DNA from: an uncultured virus (IMG/VR IMGVR_UViG_3300025141_000059)
Lineage: Duplodnaviria; Heunggongvirae; Uroviricota; Caudoviricetes
Reading direction: 5' to 3' (one strand)
Length of the DNA stretch: 20,000 bases
IMG/VR virus record: IMGVR_UViG_3300025141_000059
This document shows positions 10,069 to 20,000 of this stretch, one piece after another. The translations under genes and the position numbers were made by a program. Numbering within the stretch: position 1 is the first letter of the stretch; each line of letters starts with the position of its first letter. The notes beneath the pieces are model-generated. The model did no database searches and was not told the origin of the DNA. It saw only the letters and a program-made list of their open reading frames with translations.

Positions 10069-11523
10069 TTACGTAGCGATGCACTGCAGGTCAAGACTTG
10101 TGTCGAATCTACCAAGGCAGATAGCACCGGTCTTAAGCATGTGTACACTTGCTCCGTCAACGTCAGAAGCACGTGATGCTGAGCTGTCGAATCCTTTCGG
10201 AGTAACAGAACCTGCAACACACCATCTAAGGTGTTCACGTCCTTTTTTACTGATCATTCTCAAGTTGCTTACACCATCGTAAGATGATTGGTCAACGAAG
10301 ACCATTCTGTAAGACTCAAGGGAGTACCCAGTCACTGGGTGTAATCCTGCTGCTTCTGCAACCGGACCATGGTCGAACATTGGAAGCTTCACAACATTCA
10401 CAGTATGACCATCAACGTGGTCATAGCGCTTGAAGTATCCAGTAAGACCAAGGCTTCGTCCTGATCCGGTGATGAATCGTGTCTCACCTCCAACTTGCCA
10501 TTGGTTCGCTCCGAAGAAATCTTTCAACGCAGTGTCGAATTCCCGCATTCCACCGGTACCGGTGTAAAGCGTAACACTCTTCTTGTTCGCATCGGTCATT
10601 CCGTAGAACAGGTCTCCGATGATGTTGGTCAACTGCTGCTCAGTAAGCTGAGCGTACGTCTCACGGTTGATGATCTGCTCCAACAGGCCTGGACCGATAA
10701 CAACCGGCTGGCCGTTCTCATCCTTCATGTTGACGACTCCGTCGCCTCCATAGGTACGTTGTCCATACCAGTACAACATCTCGCACTCCTCTTTGAAGGC
10801 AAGCATGTGCTGATACTCTTCGTAGTCCATCCACATCTTAGTGGTAGAGCTTCCTTTGGTAGGAAGTGTGAACTCCGCAACATAGTCCTTAGCATTACCT
10901 GACATATGGTAAGACTTTCTTACTGTGGTCAGTTTGTTCCGGACCTTACCTGGCGCTTGCCAGTTGCTCGCGTTCCCACGAGAGAAGTCAGTCCCAACAG
11001 GTGCAAATAATTGCGCCCAAAGGTCTCCAGCTGTGAAACCGGCCGTTAAGACAGCGGCATTTTCCGGATTTACCAACTGCAGTGTGTAATCCCATCCAGA
11101 ACCACCTACAGCCTCTACCGGCTCCATCATGATACGAGCCTGCTCACCGTTACCGTTCACAAGAACGTATGGGTGAATGAAGAACTTGTCTGGGAATCTC
11201 AACACGAATGTTGATCCTCCCTGTCCCAAGTTTGCGACCGCATTGGTAACATGAAGTGGCCGTGTCATCAGCTTACGCGTCTGAATACGGTACTCATACT
11301 CCAAGCGGTCGATCGACTTGGTATTCTTCAGCCCCTCAGACAAGAATGAAAGCGGGAACCGCATTTCGTCTTTTCCTGAAAGGTGAGTGATTATTGGAGA
11401 CAGCTCTGTCGGTCTCGACAATAATGCATTAGATAGACTGTTCATATCAGTCATCTGGGAGTCGTTGAACAACACCCGCTGTACGCCGATGTTAGTTCCT
11501 CCAATAGGTGTTGTAATTGCCAT
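10069..11523 (-). CDS. Major capsid protein (crAss-like, HK97 fold)
   Basis: 484 aa with motifs I recall from crAss-like MCPs: 'TDMNSLSNALL..P', 'PGKVRNKLTTVRKSY..SGN', 'WMDYEEYQ', 'GPGLLEQI', 'LYTGTGGMREFD', 'H.DGHTV.V...PMFD.G', 'HPVTG..LESYRM.F.D', 'SDVDG.S.H.L...I'. Flanked by a scaffold-like gene and a terminator. Confidence 0.9.
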   Translation of the reverse strand: MAITTPIGGTNIGVQRVLFNDSQMTDMNSLSNALLSRPTELSPIITHLSGKDEMRFPLSFLSEGLKNTKSIDRLEYEYRIQTRKLMTRPLHVTNAVANLGQGGSTFVLRFPDKFFIHPYVLVNGNGEQARIMMEPVEAVGGSGWDYTLQLVNPENAAVLTAGFTAGDLWAQLFAPVGTDFSRGNASNWQAPGKVRNKLTTVRKSYHMSGNAKDYVAEFTLPTKGSSTTKMWMDYEEYQHMLAFKEECEMLYWYGQRTYGGDGVVNMKDENGQPVVIGPGLLEQIINRETYAQLTEQQLTNIIGDLFYGMTDANKKSVTLYTGTGGMREFDTALKDFFGANQWQVGGETRFITGSGRSLGLTGYFKRYDHVDGHTVNVVKLPMFDHGPVAEAAGLHPVTGYSLESYRMVFVDQSSYDGVSNLRMISKKGREHLRWCVAGSVTPKGFDSSASRASDVDGASVHMLKTGAICLGRFDTSLDLQCIAT

Positions 11524-12846: not shown

Positions 12847-15800
12847 CTATAGCTTCCATCCCTGTGATCCGTTATAATATCCTCCGTATTTGTTGTAACT
12901 GTGTTTCCGTGGCTTCAAAAGATCTTCTCCAAGCGCATTAAGTTTTTCTTTCCATGTACCATTTATTTCATCATATACTTCAATTCGATCCGTAGGGTCA
13001 TACGTGGTTAATGCTCTCTGCTCCTCACTGTTTCCCAGTCTATTCATTCTTGCCCTCATCTTCTCATTGATGGCATTGAATGCTCCTTCAGGCGGTTCCT
13101 TTCCAACCTTCTTGTACATCTCATTCCATCTGGCCAACTCTTTATTATAGTGCTTCATTACCACGTCATCTTTAAATGGAGATGAACCTTGATAAAGCTT
13201 GTCCATTCCTTTTATATCAGATCTCTCAATGGGATTGAATGAACTGAAAATATCATTCTTCAGATCTGCAGGGTACTTTTCCAGATTCTTCAAATACCTT
13301 ACAGTTTCCGATAGGGTCTGGTCAGGACCGAATTCCTTATTCAGAATCCTGAGCACATCTTCATCCAGAATATTCCTGTCCATCATTAATTCTGCCCGTC
13401 TCTTTTCAAATGCTGAAGGAAAATTGAGTGGTTTTAAAGCAGGAGTGCTTCCAAAGGACGCCTTTACCCCAAGCTGATCTCTCAATGGAGCGGTCTTATC
13501 AGACATTCCTCTTTCCACCATGTCTCTACCCATTTTATTCAAGGCATCCAAATGCTCAGGAGATTTTGGTTTTTTTCCAAATATATCTCCAAGAAGATCA
13601 CCGAGTCCTTCAGGAGGAAGACCTGCAGCCTCACGAGCAGCTTCTGCCGCCATGTCATCAGATGTAGGGTAATGTTGAATATGATCGTCTAAGAACTTTT
13701 CTTTTGTAATTCCTTCTTCTAATATATCATCCCACATCTGTGGGTATTCATTTCTTCCCTCGGGCATCTTTCCTTCCAGTGACCTGTTCAATCCCCTGTA
13801 ATTCATATCCCTGTACGCTTGCATCGGAGTCTTCATATTCGCTAATCTATTCCCTGCATATCTTGCTCCTGCTCCAAGTCCTGCTCCTATCATTCCTGCT
13901 CCCATCTCCCAAGTGGCACCTTCCACCATACTGTTTCCTCTTCCTTTCCATCCTTTTCTTCCAGCGTCAAGTTCTTCCTGAGAGGGTCCTTCCAATGTGA
14001 ACATGGTTCTTGGAAGAAGTGCTGCCTTTGTTCCTGCATCATGAAAGGTTCTTGCCACTTTCTCAGTTCCTGACAATGGTATATTCAAGGGAGATGCTCC
14101 AGGTCCATATCCAGCTTCACGTATCCCTCTTCCTGCCCATGGTTCCAGAGGCTGGATCTCTTCAAGTTCTCCCAGAGGTCGAGGCATAGCTACACCAGTG
14201 CTTTCAGCCGGACCCCCGTTCTGCATCATCTTCTTTTCCCACCAAGTTCCACCGTTACGCATTTTCGGTTTAGTTGGTTTTATTTTCTTATCAAGGTAAT
14301 CAGTTATCTCCTGTATATTGAACATCGCTCCATACAGGCCAGCTGTAGCGGTTCCTGCGCCAGTAGCTGTAATTATATCTTTATTCCTGTCGAACTTATG
14401 TTTCAATGACGTCTTCCCTGTTCTTTCAGCTACAATGTCTGGAAGATGAACACGTCTGTCGATCATCTTTGCATTAGGAATGTCCGCTCCTGTATTCACA
14501 CGGAGTCTTTCAAGATACTTGTTCGCCATTTCCAAGGTCTCCTCTGACCCCCCTCCTTCTGGAACGAATTTCTTTCCAGAACTGTTCATTGGATTGAATG
14601 CTCCTGTATGACTTATATTGAAGTCACCTTTTCTTACTGCAGATCCAAGTTTTGGATAGAGAAGTCTAAAGGAGTCTGAAGACAATGATTGTTCGCTGAA
14701 TCTATTTCCGGCACCCAAAACCCCTTCCTCTATATCCTTTGCTTTTGAGTGAGCCGCAGTCGGAGATACGCCGAACATTGAGTGGGCATCAGAATCTCCA
14801 GGAAGCTTGTTTTGAGAGTTGTAAAAAAGAGCCTTTGGAGATAATTTACCTTTTTGATATGCTTGTTTTAGCGGTAAGATAAGGTTCCTTTTTGGATCTT
14901 TAATAGCGCCATGAAATTTTTGAATAGGGCTTCTTCTAGCAAGATACGACCTTGGTGGTCCCAATGTACTGCTGAGGAAATCTCTCATGGCTGCATCGTC
15001 AATTCTCCCAACGATGTTTGGATCGATACCATCTGCATAGAATTGGAGGCCCTGTAAGTAGTCTTCGGATTCTACTGCGTCTCGAATATCAAGTTCCTGG
15101 CTCATTCTTCGCATGTTTTCTCGATCAACAATCGCGTTGTGATCATCGACAGTCATCACATCCATTTCGGCATCAAGATCGTGGCTTCGCATCTCAACCG
15201 CGTTTGAACGTTCGTAGTATGCATCCATTCTCTTTTGAGTCTCACCGCCTTTCATTTGTCTAGGCTGAAGCCCTTCTTCTGCGGCTGCATCAAAGAAGTC
15301 AGCTCTATCTCCAGAGTTCTGCGCGACTTCGTCTAGAATCCTTTCTTGTCCCTTGGTATAGCCTCTTCTTCCATTATAAATCCTCTTCGCTCCTTTGTAC
15401 ATTCCATATCCTACAAATGGAAGGGCTGCAGCTCCTGCTGCGATACCTACGGTTCCCCAGTCCCTGTCCTTAATTGCTTTTACAAGATGCATGACATCTC
15501 TGGCATCTCCGTATCCAGGAGCGAAGTCTGCGGAACTATTGATAACGTCAGCAGCACTTTCCATATTCTCTCTTGCAGCATATGCTATAGGGTCGTGTTT
15601 CTGACTCCAGTTACGTACTGCTGTAGGATTGGTCCTGTCCAGAGTATCTTCCACCTTAACCTCTGGTAGCATGTGTCCCCATGCTGGGCCTGCGTTATAC
15701 GCTGTAGAAGGGATGTGTTCAGGTGCACCATCTTGATACTTAGGAAGTTCTCCACCTGTTTGATACTTAGGTAGAGATCCTCCGTATTCATATGGCAAAC

Positions 15801-18800
15801 CTTGTACTCCTTGAATTTTTTTAGCAGTAGAACCTTTTTTAGGTTTTGCAGGTTTTTCATACTGCTGTATTCTATCCATTGTACTATTAAACTTAGCCCA
15901 TTCTGGTTTTTTATCAAAACCGCTTACAGGTTTAGCCATAGATTTAGCTACTAAAGGTTGAGCTACTGGCTGTGTTGGTTTTTTAAAGAGATAATTATAG
16001 TCCTTGTACGATTGCATAGTTACACCTTGAGGTTTTATTTTACTCTCTTTGATGTATTTAGGGTCCTCAAAAACAAAATCATCATCGTAACCTTTACTTC
16101 TTTGCGCACTAACGTGTTCAGGACTAGCTATATAAAGAGATTCTCCAGTGTCAAATATTTTATAAGCCCCTCCTTTGGTATTAAATTTTTCATTCTCTTT
16201 TAAAATAAGATCATAAGGATACTTTGAAGGGTCAGCACTATTACTTCTTGCTATATCACGGTAAAATTGCTTATGCTGTTCATAAAGATTTAAACTGTCA
16301 TTATAATCATTATAAGCTTGTTCTCTTTTTTTAAACTCTTCTTCTCTTTTTTTAAACTCTTCAGGATCTGATATGTATTTTACATCACCTCCATCCTGAT
16401 ATTCTGGAAGTTGTCCTCCACCTTGAAACTTAGGTAGAGATCCTCCGCTTTCTAAAAACCGTACATTTCTATACATACCACCTTTATTTCTAGGATATCT
16501 TCTTCTACTGTTTTTTCTATCTTCTCTTTTTTCTCTTCTGGCTTCTTTTCTTTCTAACCTTTCCATCTCTTTTCCCAATCCAATAGTTCCAAGACCAATC
16601 ATGGGTTCATCCCGAGGATTTCCACGTTCTCTTTCTGATATAAACATTTGATTAACTTCTTCAGGGCTAAAAAAATCATATAAACCTCCCATATTATTTA
16701 AATCATACTGCTGCAATCTTTCAGAATTACTTATTACATTTTTAGGTGTTCCCTCCTGATACTGAGGTAAGTATCCTCCGTCTTGAAATTCAAATGTTTT
16801 TGCTTCTGTTTTACCAGGAATACTATCGGGAGTAGTATGTATTTCGACAATTCCTTCGTGTCTACCGAAAGGACTTGAAAAGGAAGGAGGACTAATATTA
16901 ATACTTTTAATTTTATTTGTCAGTGTACTTGGAGAATCAAAAGGATTACTCACATCATATACACTATCAAGATTAGCAGCAACAAGTCTAAGTTCGTCGA
17001 GTGAAAGCCCAGTAGGGTCATCAAAAACATTTTCAATTCTATATGATACAGGGTCCTCTTCATAATAAATCTTATTTCCTTCATCATCCAACTCCGCCCC
17101 TTGTATTGCTTCTAGATCACTTTCTTGTGCATCTTTATACCAATTTAAAGACAGGGCTTTCGGAGTATTTCCATTTTTACTTAATACCATCGGGGTCGAC
17201 CATGTTCTTTCGTCATCCCAATTCTCAGAGGCAAACCCCATTTCTTCAGCAGGAAAATTCTCAAAATTCTGAAGATCGTGCTTAGTATTGAGCAAAGGCA
17301 TAGTTGAATAGGGCTCCTCTAACGTCCAAGTCTGTTTAATATGCTCTTCAAGTTGTTCTCTAGACATATTTGCATAAGGAGCAGCAGGTGCTGGGGATAT
17401 ATAAGGCCTAGGTGTTACTGGTGTAGCTATACTTGAGGAGTTATATGTGCTTGGAATAGCAGATACCGGTTGATCCACCGACGTCCACCTCTGAGGCCAC
17501 AGCGTTTGGTTTTTATCCGAAGCAAGTTCAGTTGTATATCTTTTCCCTTCATAAGTAAACTCTTTTTCTCCAGCAGCTCTTGCCTGTCTGAATGCTTCTC
17601 CACGAGTCATAGTTTTTTCTACAGGTCTCTGTTCAAATCCCATGACTGGTTCAGCCATAGTAGTTCTTGCTTTAAGTTCAGGAGTAGTATCTAAGTTCCA
17701 ATTTCTTACAATAACAGAATCAGAATATCCTGATTCTCTTAATTGATTGTAAGAGTATTTTTTACCATCAGTATGCATAAGATTTACAGCATCTCTATCT
17801 CCTTGCCATCCTTTTACAGGACCTCCATCCTGATATTTAGGAAGCTGTCCTCCGTCTCTAAATTCAGTTAAAGGAGTTGTGCGATTATTTCCACCAAATT
17901 CAGGCTTCTTAGTAGTTGATATTCTCTTATTATTCTTATCATAATAAATTCTACCATATATATCAAAAGGGTTAAACAGTAGTCTTTCAGACATATCTCC
18001 TATCTTTTCAAGTAGTTTATTTAAACGACCATCTTTATCAATCTCTCTATGTTTTTCATATTCCATGATATTATCAATAGAACTTCTTATACCTAATACT
18101 CGTTTAGCAATTCGTTCAGGGTCTAAATCCCAACGATCTTTATATTCAAGGTAAAAACCTCCATCTTTAGTATTTACTTTATTAACTGAATGTCGTCCAA
18201 ATGTATAATCTCCAAAAGGTTTAACACCACTTGCTCTACCATCAGCAACAGCTGCTTTCTTTAAGTCTGGGTCGTCCTTTAAAGTAGCAGTTAAATCATC
18301 AGGAAATTCATCCTCATAACCTTTTAATTGAAAAGTACCTTCTTGATAAGGCGATGGTTCAAATATATTTTTACCTACTTGCTCTTCACCAAGATACTTT
18401 CTAAAAGCATTGGATTCCGCCTCGGCTGCTCCGCTAAATACGGAGTAGCTGTTGGCAGCAGTTCTGGGTTTAGGATAGATCATTTGATCTCTAAAGTCTT
18501 GAAAATCAAGATTATATCCTGTGAAAGTATCAATATTAGATATATTCTTCCGCCAATTTAGAGGGTTTAAATCTCTTCTTTCTTGTTTCTTCTTTTGTTG
18601 CTCCTGCGCCCGTATTTCAGGAACAGCCATTGTTTTAGTCTCTTCTTCATGCTGTAATTGATTTTCTTCAAACTTTCTTCCGTTTTGATACTTAGGTAAT
18701 GAGCCTCCGTCTCTATATTCTAAACCTTGTACTCCTGGACCTCCTCCGGTTGCATATTGCGGAAGACCGGCCGAGGTCATCTGTCGGTTCTGTACGATCT

Positions 18801-20000
18801 TCATGATAGCTCCCTCAAGTGAGATGTCTCCTGCTTGGAGTTCCGGATCATTGATCAGCTCCTGCAACTCTTCCTGAATGAGCTCCGTACCCATCTCTGC
18901 AGCTGCTTCCTGGATCTGGTCCATGCTCTCTCCAGGGATGATGGATTGCGACGCGTTACCTGCCTCTGCAACTTCTTCGTTGGTCTTCTTTATCTCGTTG
19001 ATGATACTATTGATACCATCTTCGATCTCAATGGGCTGTATCTCACTGATAGGTTTGAGGTTCTCAATTCCATTCTGGACGGTACTGACAGTGTCTCCCA
19101 CTGCTCCCTTTGCACTCTCTATTCCGGCCTCAATCACTCCCGTAGCCTGATCGAGTTCATCCATACCCTCCATGATATTGCCCTCGACAAAGCTCAGTGC
19201 CAGGATAAAGTCAGCATAATCCTCGCCCATGTAACGGATCCTGTCGATCCTCTCCACAGCCCCGTCGAGTTTCTTTTTTGTCTCAGGAACACCGTCCCTC
19301 AGGAGATCCAGGGTTTCCAGGGCCGTGTATCTGGCCTCAGGGACCGCATTCCTTGGAGCAGCGATCATATCCTTGGCCGTATTATCCAGAACCTCTCCGG
19401 TTTTGGACGCCAGAGTGTATGGTTCCCTGTAATCGTAATTGACACGGCTGTCCTTTAGATGTGCCTCCATCATGGCGTCGTGATCTATGTTCAGTGAAGA
19501 CGAATAGTCAGCAACGAAGTTCGTATACGAGACCCCCTCAGGAGTATTCGGCATCTCCTTGATGTGAATATTGCGGAACATCTCTATCCCTTCAGCAATA
19601 CTCTCTCTTGAGAATCCCTTCTTGTTGGTGAAGTCATTCCTGATCATATTGTCGATCCCCTTATTATGGGCCAGGGACAGAATGTTCCGTTTGGTGATGT
19701 CATCCTCCTCAGTGAACTGGTCTCCGAGCATCTGCTCCAAAAGGGTGTAGTTCCTGGCGGTGTTCAACATGGTCGCTGCAGCCGATATCCGCGGGTCGTA
19801 GATGGAATTGTGGTCCACTCCGTATCGGTCGAGTAGATCTCTGTCCGCCTGGCCTTCGAAGTTCCCTTCCAACTTGATCTGTGATGGGCCCTCACTGAAC
19901 GGGTCAGTATTCAGACGTCCCTTGAACAACTCACCGAATGTCTGTTTGTAGCTCCGAATGATGTTCCGCGGGTATTCTCTTTTTCTTACGTACCCTTCCC
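12847..20000 (-). CDS. Giant modular (polyprotein-like) protein, >2380 aa, 5'-truncated; putative virion cargo/effector array
   Basis: The frame stays open beyond the track's TTG at 19929 to the window edge (..EGYVRKREYPRNIIRSYKQTFGEL..), so the true start is outside the window. About seven dissimilar modules are separated by recurrent xxGG linkers. It ends in TAG, followed by ACA TAA. Confidence 0.85.
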   Translation of the reverse strand, partial: EGYVRKREYPRNIIRSYKQTFGELFKGRLNTDPFSEGPSQIKLEGNFEGQADRDLLDRYGVDHNSIYDPRISAAATMLNTARNYTLLEQMLGDQFTEEDDITKRNILSLAHNKGIDNMIRNDFTNKKGFSRESIAEGIEMFRNIHIKEMPNTPEGVSYTNFVADYSSSLNIDHDAMMEAHLKDSRVNYDYREPYTLASKTGEVLDNTAKDMIAAPRNAVPEARYTALETLDLLRDGVPETKKKLDGAVERIDRIRYMGEDYADFILALSFVEGNIMEGMDELDQATGVIEAGIESAKGAVGDTVSTVQNGIENLKPISEIQPIEIEDGINSIINEIKKTNEEVAEAGNASQSIIPGESMDQIQEAAAEMGTELIQEELQELINDPELQAGDISLEGAIMKIVQNRQMTSAGLPQYATGGGPGVQGLEYRDGGSLPKYQNGRKFEENQLQHEEETKTMAVPEIRAQEQQKKKQERRDLNPLNWRKNISNIDTFTGYNLDFQDFRDQMIYPKPRTAANSYSVFSGAAEAESNAFRKYLGEEQVGKNIFEPSPYQEGTFQLKGYEDEFPDDLTATLKDDPDLKKAAVADGRASGVKPFGDYTFGRHSVNKVNTKDGGFYLEYKDRWDLDPERIAKRVLGIRSSIDNIMEYEKHREIDKDGRLNKLLEKIGDMSERLLFNPFDIYGRIYYDKNNKRISTTKKPEFGGNNRTTPLTEFRDGGQLPKYQDGGPVKGWQGDRDAVNLMHTDGKKYSYNQLRESGYSDSVIVRNWNLDTTPELKARTTMAEPVMGFEQRPVEKTMTRGEAFRQARAAGEKEFTYEGKRYTTELASDKNQTLWPQRWTSVDQPVSAIPSTYNSSSIATPVTPRPYISPAPAAPYANMSREQLEEHIKQTWTLEEPYSTMPLLNTKHDLQNFENFPAEEMGFASENWDDERTWSTPMVLSKNGNTPKALSLNWYKDAQESDLEAIQGAELDDEGNKIYYEEDPVSYRIENVFDDPTGLSLDELRLVAANLDSVYDVSNPFDSPSTLTNKIKSINISPPSFSSPFGRHEGIVEIHTTPDSIPGKTEAKTFEFQDGGYLPQYQEGTPKNVISNSERLQQYDLNNMGGLYDFFSPEEVNQMFISERERGNPRDEPMIGLGTIGLGKEMERLERKEARREKREDRKNSRRRYPRNKGGMYRNVRFLESGGSLPKFQGGGQLPEYQDGGDVKYISDPEEFKKREEEFKKREQAYNDYNDSLNLYEQHKQFYRDIARSNSADPSKYPYDLILKENEKFNTKGGAYKIFDTGESLYIASPEHVSAQRSKGYDDDFVFEDPKYIKESKIKPQGVTMQSYKDYNYLFKKPTQPVAQPLVAKSMAKPVSGFDKKPEWAKFNSTMDRIQQYEKPAKPKKGSTAKKIQGVQGLPYEYGGSLPKYQTGGELPKYQDGAPEHIPSTAYNAGPAWGHMLPEVKVEDTLDRTNPTAVRNWSQKHDPIAYAARENMESAADVINSSADFAPGYGDARDVMHLVKAIKDRDWGTVGIAAGAAALPFVGYGMYKGAKRIYNGRRGYTKGQERILDEVAQNSGDRADFFDAAAEEGLQPRQMKGGETQKRMDAYYERSNAVEMRSHDLDAEMDVMTVDDHNAIVDRENMRRMSQELDIRDAVESEDYLQGLQFYADGIDPNIVGRIDDAAMRDFLSSTLGPPRSYLARRSPIQKFHGAIKDPKRNLILPLKQAYQKGKLSPKALFYNSQNKLPGDSDAHSMFGVSPTAAHSKAKDIEEGVLGAGNRFSEQSLSSDSFRLLYPKLGSAVRKGDFNISHTGAFNPMNSSGKKFVPEGGGSEETLEMANKYLERLRVNTGADIPNAKMIDRRVHLPDIVAERTGKTSLKHKFDRNKDIITATGAGTATAGLYGAMFNIQEITDYLDKKIKPTKPKMRNGGTWWEKKMMQNGGPAESTGVAMPRPLGELEEIQPLEPWAGRGIREAGYGPGASPLNIPLSGTEKVARTFHDAGTKAALLPRTMFTLEGPSQEELDAGRKGWKGRGNSMVEGATWEMGAGMIGAGLGAGARYAGNRLANMKTPMQAYRDMNYRGLNRSLEGKMPEGRNEYPQMWDDILEEGITKEKFLDDHIQHYPTSDDMAAEAAREAAGLPPEGLGDLLGDIFGKKPKSPEHLDALNKMGRDMVERGMSDKTAPLRDQLGVKASFGSTPALKPLNFPSAFEKRRAELMMDRNILDEDVLRILNKEFGPDQTLSETVRYLKNLEKYPADLKNDIFSSFNPIERSDIKGMDKLYQGSSPFKDDVVMKHYNKELARWNEMYKKVGKEPPEGAFNAINEKMRARMNRLGNSEEQRALTTYDPTDRIEVYDEINGTWKEKLNALGEDLLKPRKHSYNKYGGYYNGSQGWKL
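14212..14271 (-). repeat. Degenerate linker: KPKMRNGG-TWWEKK-MMQNGG
   Basis: Two MxNGG copies in the translation, separating the last two modules. Confidence 0.6.
15728..15810 (-). repeat. Linker repeat GVQGLPYEYGG-SLPKYQTGG-ELPKYQDG; left direct repeat of the AT-rich block
   Basis: TTGATACTTAGG occurs at 15733 and 15760 (27-bp period). 15760-15810 matches 18685-18735 at 42 of 51 positions by hand alignment. Confidence 0.9.
16321..16362. repeat. Perfect 21-bp tandem duplication (EEFKKRE x2)
   Basis: TTCTCTTTTTTTAAACTCTTC at 16321-16341 and 16342-16362. Confidence 0.9.
16387..16458 (-). repeat. Linker repeat FLESGG-SLPKFQGGG-QLPEYQDGG
   Basis: Read from the translation. The DNA shares CTTAGGTAGAGATCCTCCG with the 15766-15784 copy. 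Confidence 0.9.
16751..16791 (-). repeat. Linker repeat EFQDGG-YLPQYQEG
   Basis: Read from the translation. Confidence 0.85.
17821..17865 (-). repeat. Linker repeat EFRDGG-QLPKYQDGG
   Basis: Read from the translation. The DNA ACCTCCATCCTGATATT is shared with 16387-16403. Confidence 0.9.
18680..18768 (-). repeat. Linker repeat GLPQYATGGG-PGVQGLEYRDGG-SLPKYQNG; right direct repeat of the AT-rich block
   Basis: Read from the translation. 18685-18735 is the partner of 15760-15810. Confidence 0.9.

What the first reader, a model, noticed from the sequence alone, without database searches (positions are those of the whole stretch)
15760..18735. 2.9-kb AT-rich in-frame block bounded exactly by 51-bp direct repeats inside the giant gene
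Seen: 15760-15810 and 18685-18735 (GVQGL(P/E)Y(E/R)(Y/D)GGSLPKYQ) match at 42/51 nt and are 2925 bp (975 codons) apart, so recombination between them keeps the frame. The extended GVQGL form appears only at these two junctions. Base composition switches at them. Hand-counted 60-nt lines gave 18/60 (16141) and 17/60 (17941) G+C inside, versus 29/60 (15481) and 32/60 (19261) outside. Inference: four modules were acquired as a unit from a lower-GC phage by recombination at the linker. That would be direct evidence that the linker acts as an exchange site.
Basis: partly seen in the sequence, partly recalled or inferred. Interest (0 to 1): 0.82.

Follow-up and report, generated by a model that had tools for sequence, protein, structure and literature searches.

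The report
Borrowed modules in phage cargo protein
A marine crAss-like phage has taken four protein modules from an AT-richer phage lineage and spliced them in frame into one giant gene at a short repeated linker peptide, which shows in the DNA how these phages swap parts of the proteins they probably carry in their particles.

Summary
Observation confirmed. The repeats match at 42/51 and lie 975 codons apart; synonymous GC drops from 0.61 to 0.18 and rises to 0.33 within 8-15 codons of them. Contigs of other runs and a second assembly span the junctions. The block is four linker-bounded modules in a 2,781-aa Crassvirales gene between portal and scaffold. Low-GC donor: supported. Two sister AT-rich phages share 329 and 388 nt of two modules at 94% and 92%, while their capsid genes are only about 41% identical to this one at 4-fold sites. 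Linker as exchange site: supported in relatives, including an empty/filled pair. Corrections: GVQGL is the native tail of the fourth module's family, not a junction mark; exchange also occurs at inner linkers and inside modules; the flanks differ from each other; no empty allele, circle, or relative with two block modules in order was found, so transfer as one unit is likely (about 0.55), not shown. The motif also occurs in crAss001 cargo protein gp45. This scan noted the GG-linker system before on other DNA; I found no paper on it.

The parts
12847..19998 (-). Giant gene (window part, 2383 aa; whole protein 2781 aa in L081) in the variable slot between portal plus a 131-aa gene and the scaffold-like gene
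18766..19998 (-). End of the native N-terminal part (GC3s 0.61); with the part beyond the window it holds an NlpC/P60-like and a lytic-transglycosylase-like domain (weak fold matches)
18742..18765 (-). Half-linker LPQYATGG; most likely place of the upstream codon-usage switch
   Evidence: MAP aa 414, 95% interval 18774-18732
18685..18735 (-). Upstream repeat: GVQGL stump plus linker GGSLPKYQ
17863..18678 (-). Module M1 (GC3s 0.18), unknown fold; homologs in 12 of 41 proteins; a P0007-type allele co-occurs at low depth in runs X2 and X3
17821..17862 (-). Inner linker L2 (FRDGGQLPKYQDGG); DNA shared with L111 begins here
16789..17820 (-). Module M2 (GC3s 0.20); 17511-17839 is 94% identical in DNA to low-GC phage L111
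16750..16788 (-). Inner linker L3 (FQDGGYLPQYQEG)
16459..16749 (-). Module M3 (GC3s 0.15); 72-76% identical to the first module of P0010
16387..16458 (-). Inner double linker L4
15811..16386 (-). Module M4 (GC3s 0.17); 15955-16342 is 92% identical in DNA to low-GC phage L117; its family ends in a QGVQG-type tail
15760..15810 (-). Downstream repeat: native M4-family tail plus linker
15727..15759 (-). Second half of the downstream linker (GGELPKYQDG); codon-usage switch lies within 15819-15696
12847..15726 (-). Downstream flank (GC3s 0.33, itself below the core's 0.46); begins with module M5, found behind other modules in P0009, P0029, L007, L100
11552..12712 (-). Acidic gene before the capsid gene, scaffold-like by position (label inferred)
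10069..11523 (-). Crassvirus major capsid protein
   Evidence: (PF23898, E 1e-74)

Best explanation
The giant gene encodes a bead-string protein of a marine crAss-like phage, probably carried in the virion (inferred). Unrelated modules are joined by a conserved peptide, [FY]xxGG-x-LPKYQ-x-G, kept for a protein-level job (most likely a loading or docking tag, possibly a cut site; inferred). Because every copy is in frame and 60-95% alike in DNA over about 24-50 nt, ordinary homologous recombination at the linker swaps whole modules without breaking the frame (module borders at linkers: shown; recombination pathway: inferred). The modules are shuffled singly within an AT-rich phage lineage (shown). 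An array of four was then moved recently into this mid-GC phage (donor lineage and recency: shown for M2 and M4), most likely in one event with crossovers in or beside the two bounding linkers (inferred, about 0.55; stepwise about 0.35). The 51-nt repeat is longer than the other linker pairs because both copies include the tail of a module-4-family member: the downstream one is M4's own tail, the upstream one is probably the stump of an earlier family member that sat directly behind the N-terminal part (inferred).
For: Repeats and switches confirmed. M2 part vs L111: 309/329 nt, 39 of 40 4-fold sites identical, against 73 of 179 in the capsid gene. M4 part vs L117: 356/388 nt, 33 of 36 4-fold sites, against 65 of 156 in the capsid gene; L111 and L117 are sisters (capsid 98% aa, 100/100 support), 0.31-0.32 changes per column from this phage. 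Both have 37.5-38.4% GC and slot genes with GC3 0.19; 69 of 80 related loci have core GC3s of 0.30 or less. Module homologies begin and end at linkers with other neighbours. P0026 and P0029 share 122 aa at 95% and 201 aa at 91%, and P0029 has about 790 extra residues between two linker copies. The slot spans 89-5862 nt in 43 of 80 loci that hold both neighbours, 8 of them empty. M4-family members follow the N-terminal part directly in P0036 and P0026. Virion link: a linker-bearing protein (L104) has the cargo-protein-1 domain PF25725; crAss001 gp45, detected in virions (PMC10172136, section 10), has GG motifs between its segments and 150 aa at 48% identity to linker protein L090. Junctions spanned by contigs of X2 (both), X3 and X4 (downstream) and by L081 (3 mismatches in 18,444 nt).
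Against: No protein among 41 has two block modules adjacent in this order; no empty allele of this phage and no joint 15760-18685 in 4 runs, whose contigs drop rare variants. Exchange borders also lie inside modules: the L111 match ends and the L117 match starts and ends away from linkers, M1 has a divergent middle against P0007, and a population bubble in X2 ends at 14411-14440, not at a linker. The flanks differ in GC3s (0.61 vs 0.33), so they were not simply one segment split by an insertion. The two repeats differ at 4 of 14 conserved codons; 10 of 14 identical is only mildly above codon-bias expectation (6.3, p=0.04). DNA of a donor for M1 and M3 was not obtained as a locus. The giant protein itself has no Pfam or PHROG match; its place in the virion is inferred. 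Motif excess is not confined to slot proteins (62 vs 15.2 expected there, but 22 vs 6.2 in portals, where homologs are not independent).
Confidence: 0.7

Rival explanations
1. Stepwise gain: the four modules came one or two at a time from the AT-rich pool, each by recombination at a linker; the block looks uniform only because all donors are AT-rich.
For: Modules occur singly in all homologs; shared DNA with L111 starts at inner linker L2; most relatives are AT-rich; other mid-GC phages also have AT-richer slot genes (L007 core 0.46, slot 0.23; L008 0.65, 0.41).
Against: GC3s is homogeneous over M1-M4 (p=0.71); M2 and M4 parts are about equally close to one donor lineage and within its own diversity; one crossing between lineages is simpler than several.
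Confidence: 0.33
2. Cassette integration: a circle holding one repeat and the four modules entered a resident repeat by a single crossover, and can leave again; the GVQGL form is a dedicated site.
For: Direct repeats in frame at both ends, switches near them; an N-tail-linker-M5-family order, the expected empty arrangement, exists in distant P0029; circles by recombination between cassette repeats are known in T4-type phages (PMC2839356, abstract and Discussion).
Against: GVQG is the module family's own tail; longest exact match is 14-15 nt; no deletion joint or circle in 4 runs; the one back-joint (X3, 18699 to 17849) fits a P0007-type allele of another phage; flanks are unlike.
Confidence: 0.2
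3. The linkers are only survivors' marks: recombination is random and selection keeps joints that fall in floppy linkers, so the linker DNA plays no part.
For: Borders inside modules exist; DNA identity of linker copies is largely explained by the peptide and codon bias.
Against: Joins of non-homologous modules fall in register within the linker (P0026/P0029, M5 behind five different neighbours), which random joining in a floppy region would not give.
Confidence: 0.12
4. Chimeric assembly at the repeats.
For: Co-occurring phages with related modules are present in the same samples.
Against: Both junctions are spanned by X2 contigs at depth 27-29, equal to the flanks; X3 and X4 span the downstream one; a second assembly is collinear; the exact match is far shorter than a 31-letter word.
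Confidence: 0.02

Closest known systems
Cargo protein C1 (gp45) of Bacteroides phage crAss001 (PMC10172136: passages and section 10 read; Pfam PF25725)
   Same: Crassvirales; small segments separated by xx-GG motifs (GG at 209, 263, 332, 373, 427, 562); gp45 200-335 is 48% identical to a linker-bearing protein of this set.
   Different: The window protein has no PF25725 domain and no direct similarity found, sits between portal and scaffold rather than behind the muzzle gene, and has a longer double motif; the paper's main text has no occurrence of 'cleav' or 'protease' and one of 'motif', in a figure legend context not about this.
Polyvalent proteins of phages and conjugative elements (Iyer et al. 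2017, PMC5512222: passages read)
   Same: Disparate domains in one chain, encoded among virion genes; relatives carry Kinase-PolyVal, SLT, lysozyme and pesticin-like domains.
   Different: No MPTase or other polyvalent-family domain detected in the window protein; the paper has no occurrence of 'linker'; here a conserved in-frame linker marks the joints.
Botstein linker model and PeSL cassettes of T4-type phages (Arbiol et al. 2010, PMC2839356: abstract, outline and Discussion read)
   Same: Short conserved repeats direct module exchange by homologous recombination between related phages.
   Different: PeSLs are intergenic promoter-terminator cassettes that move whole genes and form circles; here the repeat is a coding peptide inside one gene, no promoter or terminator excess, no circle seen.

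Membership tests
Crassvirales (crAss-like phages) | Crassvirus major capsid protein | tested here: met
   PF23898 E 1e-74; best named hits are crassvirus capsids at about 30-33%
Crassvirales (crAss-like phages) | Tail ring protein, portal and terminase in the structural block | tested here: met
   PF25710; portal-like gene upstream in L081 and terminase-portal order in relatives, labelled by position and BLAST among loci
Crassvirales (crAss-like phages) | Giant virion RNA polymerase | not tested
   Outside the 21 kb held; no whole genome available
Cargo protein C1 (gp45) family | PF25725 portal-binding domain | tested here: not met
   No hit in the window ORF or its N-terminal part; met in L104, which shares the linker
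Cargo protein C1 (gp45) family | Present in purified virions | not testable with these tools
   Uncultured phage
Polyvalent proteins (Iyer 2017) | Several biochemically disparate domains in one chain, near virion genes | tested here: inconclusive
   Position met; amidase-like and transglycosylase-like folds only at Foldseek E 0.016-0.08 on a pLDDT 55 model; block modules have no known family
Polyvalent proteins (Iyer 2017) | Hallmark domains such as MPTase, ArdC, MuF, Kinase-PolyVal | tested here: inconclusive
   None hit in this protein; Kinase-PolyVal hit in linker-sharing L100 protein
PeSL-type cassette | Intergenic promoter plus stem-loop repeat | tested here: not met
   Repeat is coding; 16 promoter-like sites vs 13.8 expected, 3 terminators vs 4.5
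PeSL-type cassette | Excised mini-circles | tested here: inconclusive
   No joint between the bounding repeats in contigs of 4 runs; contigs drop rare variants
Site-specific integrative cassette (attL/attR or target duplication) | Identical core at both ends, an empty site, a recombinase | tested here: inconclusive
   Only 14-15 nt exact blocks, 9 mismatches; no empty allele of this phage; recombinase not searchable

The most novel reading that the evidence does not exclude
Crassviruses run a plug-in cargo system in which one short peptide is both the virion loading and cutting signal and, through its DNA, the joint for in-frame exchange of whole module arrays between phage lineages, with excised circles as carriers. 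The same motif would cut crAss001 gp45: both fragments resolved by cryo-EM (214-245 in the tail, 425-552 on the portal) begin at or just behind a GG motif (209, 427) and end before the next strong one (263, 562), so they may be separate pieces rather than one chain stretched through the portal.
Probability: 0.2. Interest if true: 0.82.

Novelty: new variant of a known kind. Interest (0 to 1): 0.56.

Why it matters
Linker-guided module exchange is an old proposal for phage evolution, shown mainly for intergenic repeats. Here it is seen inside one reading frame, and because donor and recipient differ in base composition the transferred stretch and its borders can be read from the DNA: near-identical modules in phages whose capsid genes are close to saturation at silent sites. 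It gives a dated example of how Crassvirales vary the proteins they probably inject, and a test in a cultured phage (does gp45 break or dock at its GG motifs?).

Tried and rejected
Excision circle: X3 joint 18699 to 17849 and X2 joint 17898 to 18488 first looked like a circle and a deletion; the linked minor letters give N>D, D>N, F>T, matching P0007, whose linker is one residue shorter as the joint requires, so I read them as an allele of a co-occurring phage (the contigs themselves were not seen). X7 covers capsid and scaffold genes but little of the giant gene (10 of 30 bins); low depth, a hole proves nothing. GVQGL as a widespread linker form: 80 of 126 or more pattern loci fetched, 87 matches, 8 flagged by regex, all collagen-like or unrelated repeats. 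Close relatives lacking the block: none from N-terminal queries (one distant hit), downstream flank, scaffold in metagenomes (only L081), M3 in genome contigs, named phages. Module function: no Pfam/PHROG hit (51, 52), no Atlas hit for M2 and M4 (84, 85), M1 model pLDDT 59 without PDB match (60, 66; best Z 3.4), no sequence hit in PDB (56, 90). My early alignment across the downstream junction to L100 proved a spurious extension; real similarity starts at the linker. A pre-toxin TG label for M5 is recalled from its look and had no Pfam hit.
Full report
Setting. The window is the structural block of a crAss-like phage: capsid gene at 10069-11523 (PF23898, E 1e-74) and a ring protein; the runs that hold it are marine. 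The giant ORF runs from beyond the window to 12847 on the minus strand. A second assembly, L081, gives the whole protein, 2781 aa, behind a portal-like gene and a 131-aa gene and matches the window at all but 3 of 18,444 nt. In 43 of 80 related loci that hold both neighbours this slot spans 89 to 5862 nt; 8 are empty.

Observation. Twelve codon shuffles reach 31-33 of 51. Two GC3 change-points fit best, at 18768 and 15717, with 95% intervals 18774-18732 and 15819-15696. Synonymous GC is 0.61 upstream, 0.15-0.20 in the four modules (homogeneous, p=0.71), 0.33 downstream and 0.46 in the core genes. So the downstream flank is also foreign-looking and unlike the upstream one. The upstream switch most likely lies 8 codons outside the repeat, at a half-linker. 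The repeats are two of seven copies of a GG-x-LPKYQ linker; one other pair reaches 41 of 51.

Not an artefact. Of 12 runs listed I laid 4. X2 contigs span both junctions (15543-17835, depth 27; 18538-19340, depth 29); X3 and X4 span the downstream one. No joint between the two repeats was listed; contigs drop rare variants, the tables were cut, and X2-X4 may be one campaign.

Donor. L111 (37.5% GC, same slot, capsid 80% aa) shares 329 nt of module M2 at 94%, starting at inner linker L2; 39 of 40 four-fold sites are identical, against 73 of 179 in the capsid gene and 17-39% in four other core genes. L117 (38.4% GC) shares 388 nt of M4 at 92%; 33 of 36 four-fold sites against 65 of 156. L111 and L117 are sisters (100/100) and not close to this phage in a capsid tree of 31 rows, where the window's own place is unresolved and the outgroup branch is long. 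A P0007-type allele of M1 is present at depth 3-4 in X2 and X3, so donor-like phages share water with this one. Recent transfer from an AT-rich lineage is thus shown for parts of two modules; direction follows from composition.

Linker as joint. In 41 proteins from four searches, M1 is matched in 12, M2 in 14 (4 of these by a short sub-domain only), M3 in 1 and M4 in 7; none has two block modules adjacent in this order. Matches start and stop at linkers with changing neighbours. P0026 and P0029 are an empty and a filled form: 95% and 91% identical on either side of about 790 residues bounded by two linker copies. Against a strict linker rule: the L111 match ends, and the L117 match ends, inside modules; M1 has a divergent middle against P0007; and X2 shows a bubble at 12863-14410 (depth 21 vs 33-34) whose border is not at a linker.

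What GVQGL is. QGVQG/D tails end M4-family modules in P0022, P0026, P0028 and P0029, with a variant in P0027. The downstream repeat is therefore M4's own end. Upstream, five residues GVQGL lie between two half-linkers; P0036 and P0026 carry an M4-family module right behind the N-terminal part, so I infer a stump of a lost family member. This explains the long repeat without a dedicated site, and leaves open whether the array entered by one crossover in the tail or by two crossovers at the outer half-linkers.

One event or several. Uniform composition, one donor lineage for M2 and M4 and similar silent divergence favour one transfer of an array built in the donor lineage (about 0.55). Single occurrence of modules everywhere else and an AT-rich pool (69 of 80 loci with core GC3s at most 0.30) allow stepwise gain (about 0.33). 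No donor with the array and no empty allele were found.

Why the linker exists. It is a protein motif. It recurs in slot proteins (62 vs 15.2 expected in 35 proteins; portals also exceed expectation through shared sites), in a second gene of one genome, and in a protein with the cargo-protein-1 domain. crAss001 gp45, found in virions by mass spectrometry (PMC10172136, section 10), has related GG motifs and shares 150 aa at 48% with a linker protein. Its two resolved fragments start at or just behind such motifs; this is a post hoc match and only a lead. The N-terminal part of the window protein gives weak fold matches to an NlpC/P60-type amidase and MltE (E 0.016-0.08, model pLDDT 55); relatives carry SLT, lysozyme, pesticin-like and Kinase-PolyVal domains. 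I take virion cargo as likely (0.75), a docking or loading tag as somewhat more likely than a cut site; neither is shown. The four block modules have no assigned function.

What is known. It works like Botstein's linker model and the PeSL cassettes (PMC2839356: abstract, outline, Discussion) but inside a reading frame, and resembles polyvalent proteins (PMC5512222: passages). A review of the order (PMC10136315: passages) does not mention it in the passages seen. Searches (listings only) found no paper on GG-linker shuffling in crAss-like phages; subscription journals are mostly missing and no supplements were read. Earlier notes of this scan describe the same linker system on other DNA, one on a 1870-aa gene that shares words with this block, and an analogous system in T4-like giants; they are unchecked notes. 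What this window adds is the compositional contrast and the near-identical donor DNA.

Verdict. Real feature, foreign origin and linker exchange supported, unit transfer probable but unproven, bounding repeats not special sites. New variant of a known kind; interest 0.56.

Noticed in passing
window 12863-14410: In run X2 this C-terminal 1.55 kb has depth 21 against 33-34 on both sides, with a diverging contig of depth 12.8 at 14391-14440: about a third of the population seems to carry another C-terminal part, with a border away from any linker. A smaller replaced stretch lies at 15094-15198 (depth 13).
   Followed up: partly
window 16300-16365: M4 has two short in-frame tandem duplications near its start (EEFKKR twice; YND twice) that L117 lacks.
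   Followed up: partly
L112:22988-25516 (crAss001 gp45): Both cryo-EM-resolved fragments (214-245, 425-552) begin at or just behind a GG motif and end before a later one.
   Followed up: partly
L007:3-2840 and L008:1446-3113: Two other mid- or high-GC relatives also have slot genes much poorer in GC than their core (0.23 vs 0.46; 0.41 vs 0.65), suggesting repeated flow of modules from AT-rich lineages.
   Followed up: partly
L081:1129-1524: A conserved 130-160-aa gene behind the portal ends in the GG motif; it is separate here and in L002, L004, L008, L009 but fused as the first domain of the slot protein in many relatives, and absent in 8 loci.
   Followed up: partly
L117:1756-2631 and L111:715-1605: A gene beginning with a similar phosphoesterase- or nuclease-looking motif (label recalled) lies between slot gene and scaffold in L117 but upstream of the terminase in its sister L111.
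   Followed up: no
window 17530-17620: A 35-residue stretch of M2 (RGEAF...YTT) is a small mobile domain found in many unrelated short proteins and in front of M1-family members.
   Followed up: no
L082, L086, L087, L089, L095, L101, L108, L109 (130-aa ORFs) and L092: The linker pattern also hits proteins of other, apparently non-crAss phages with MxxGG motifs, so the GG tag may reach beyond this group.
   Followed up: no
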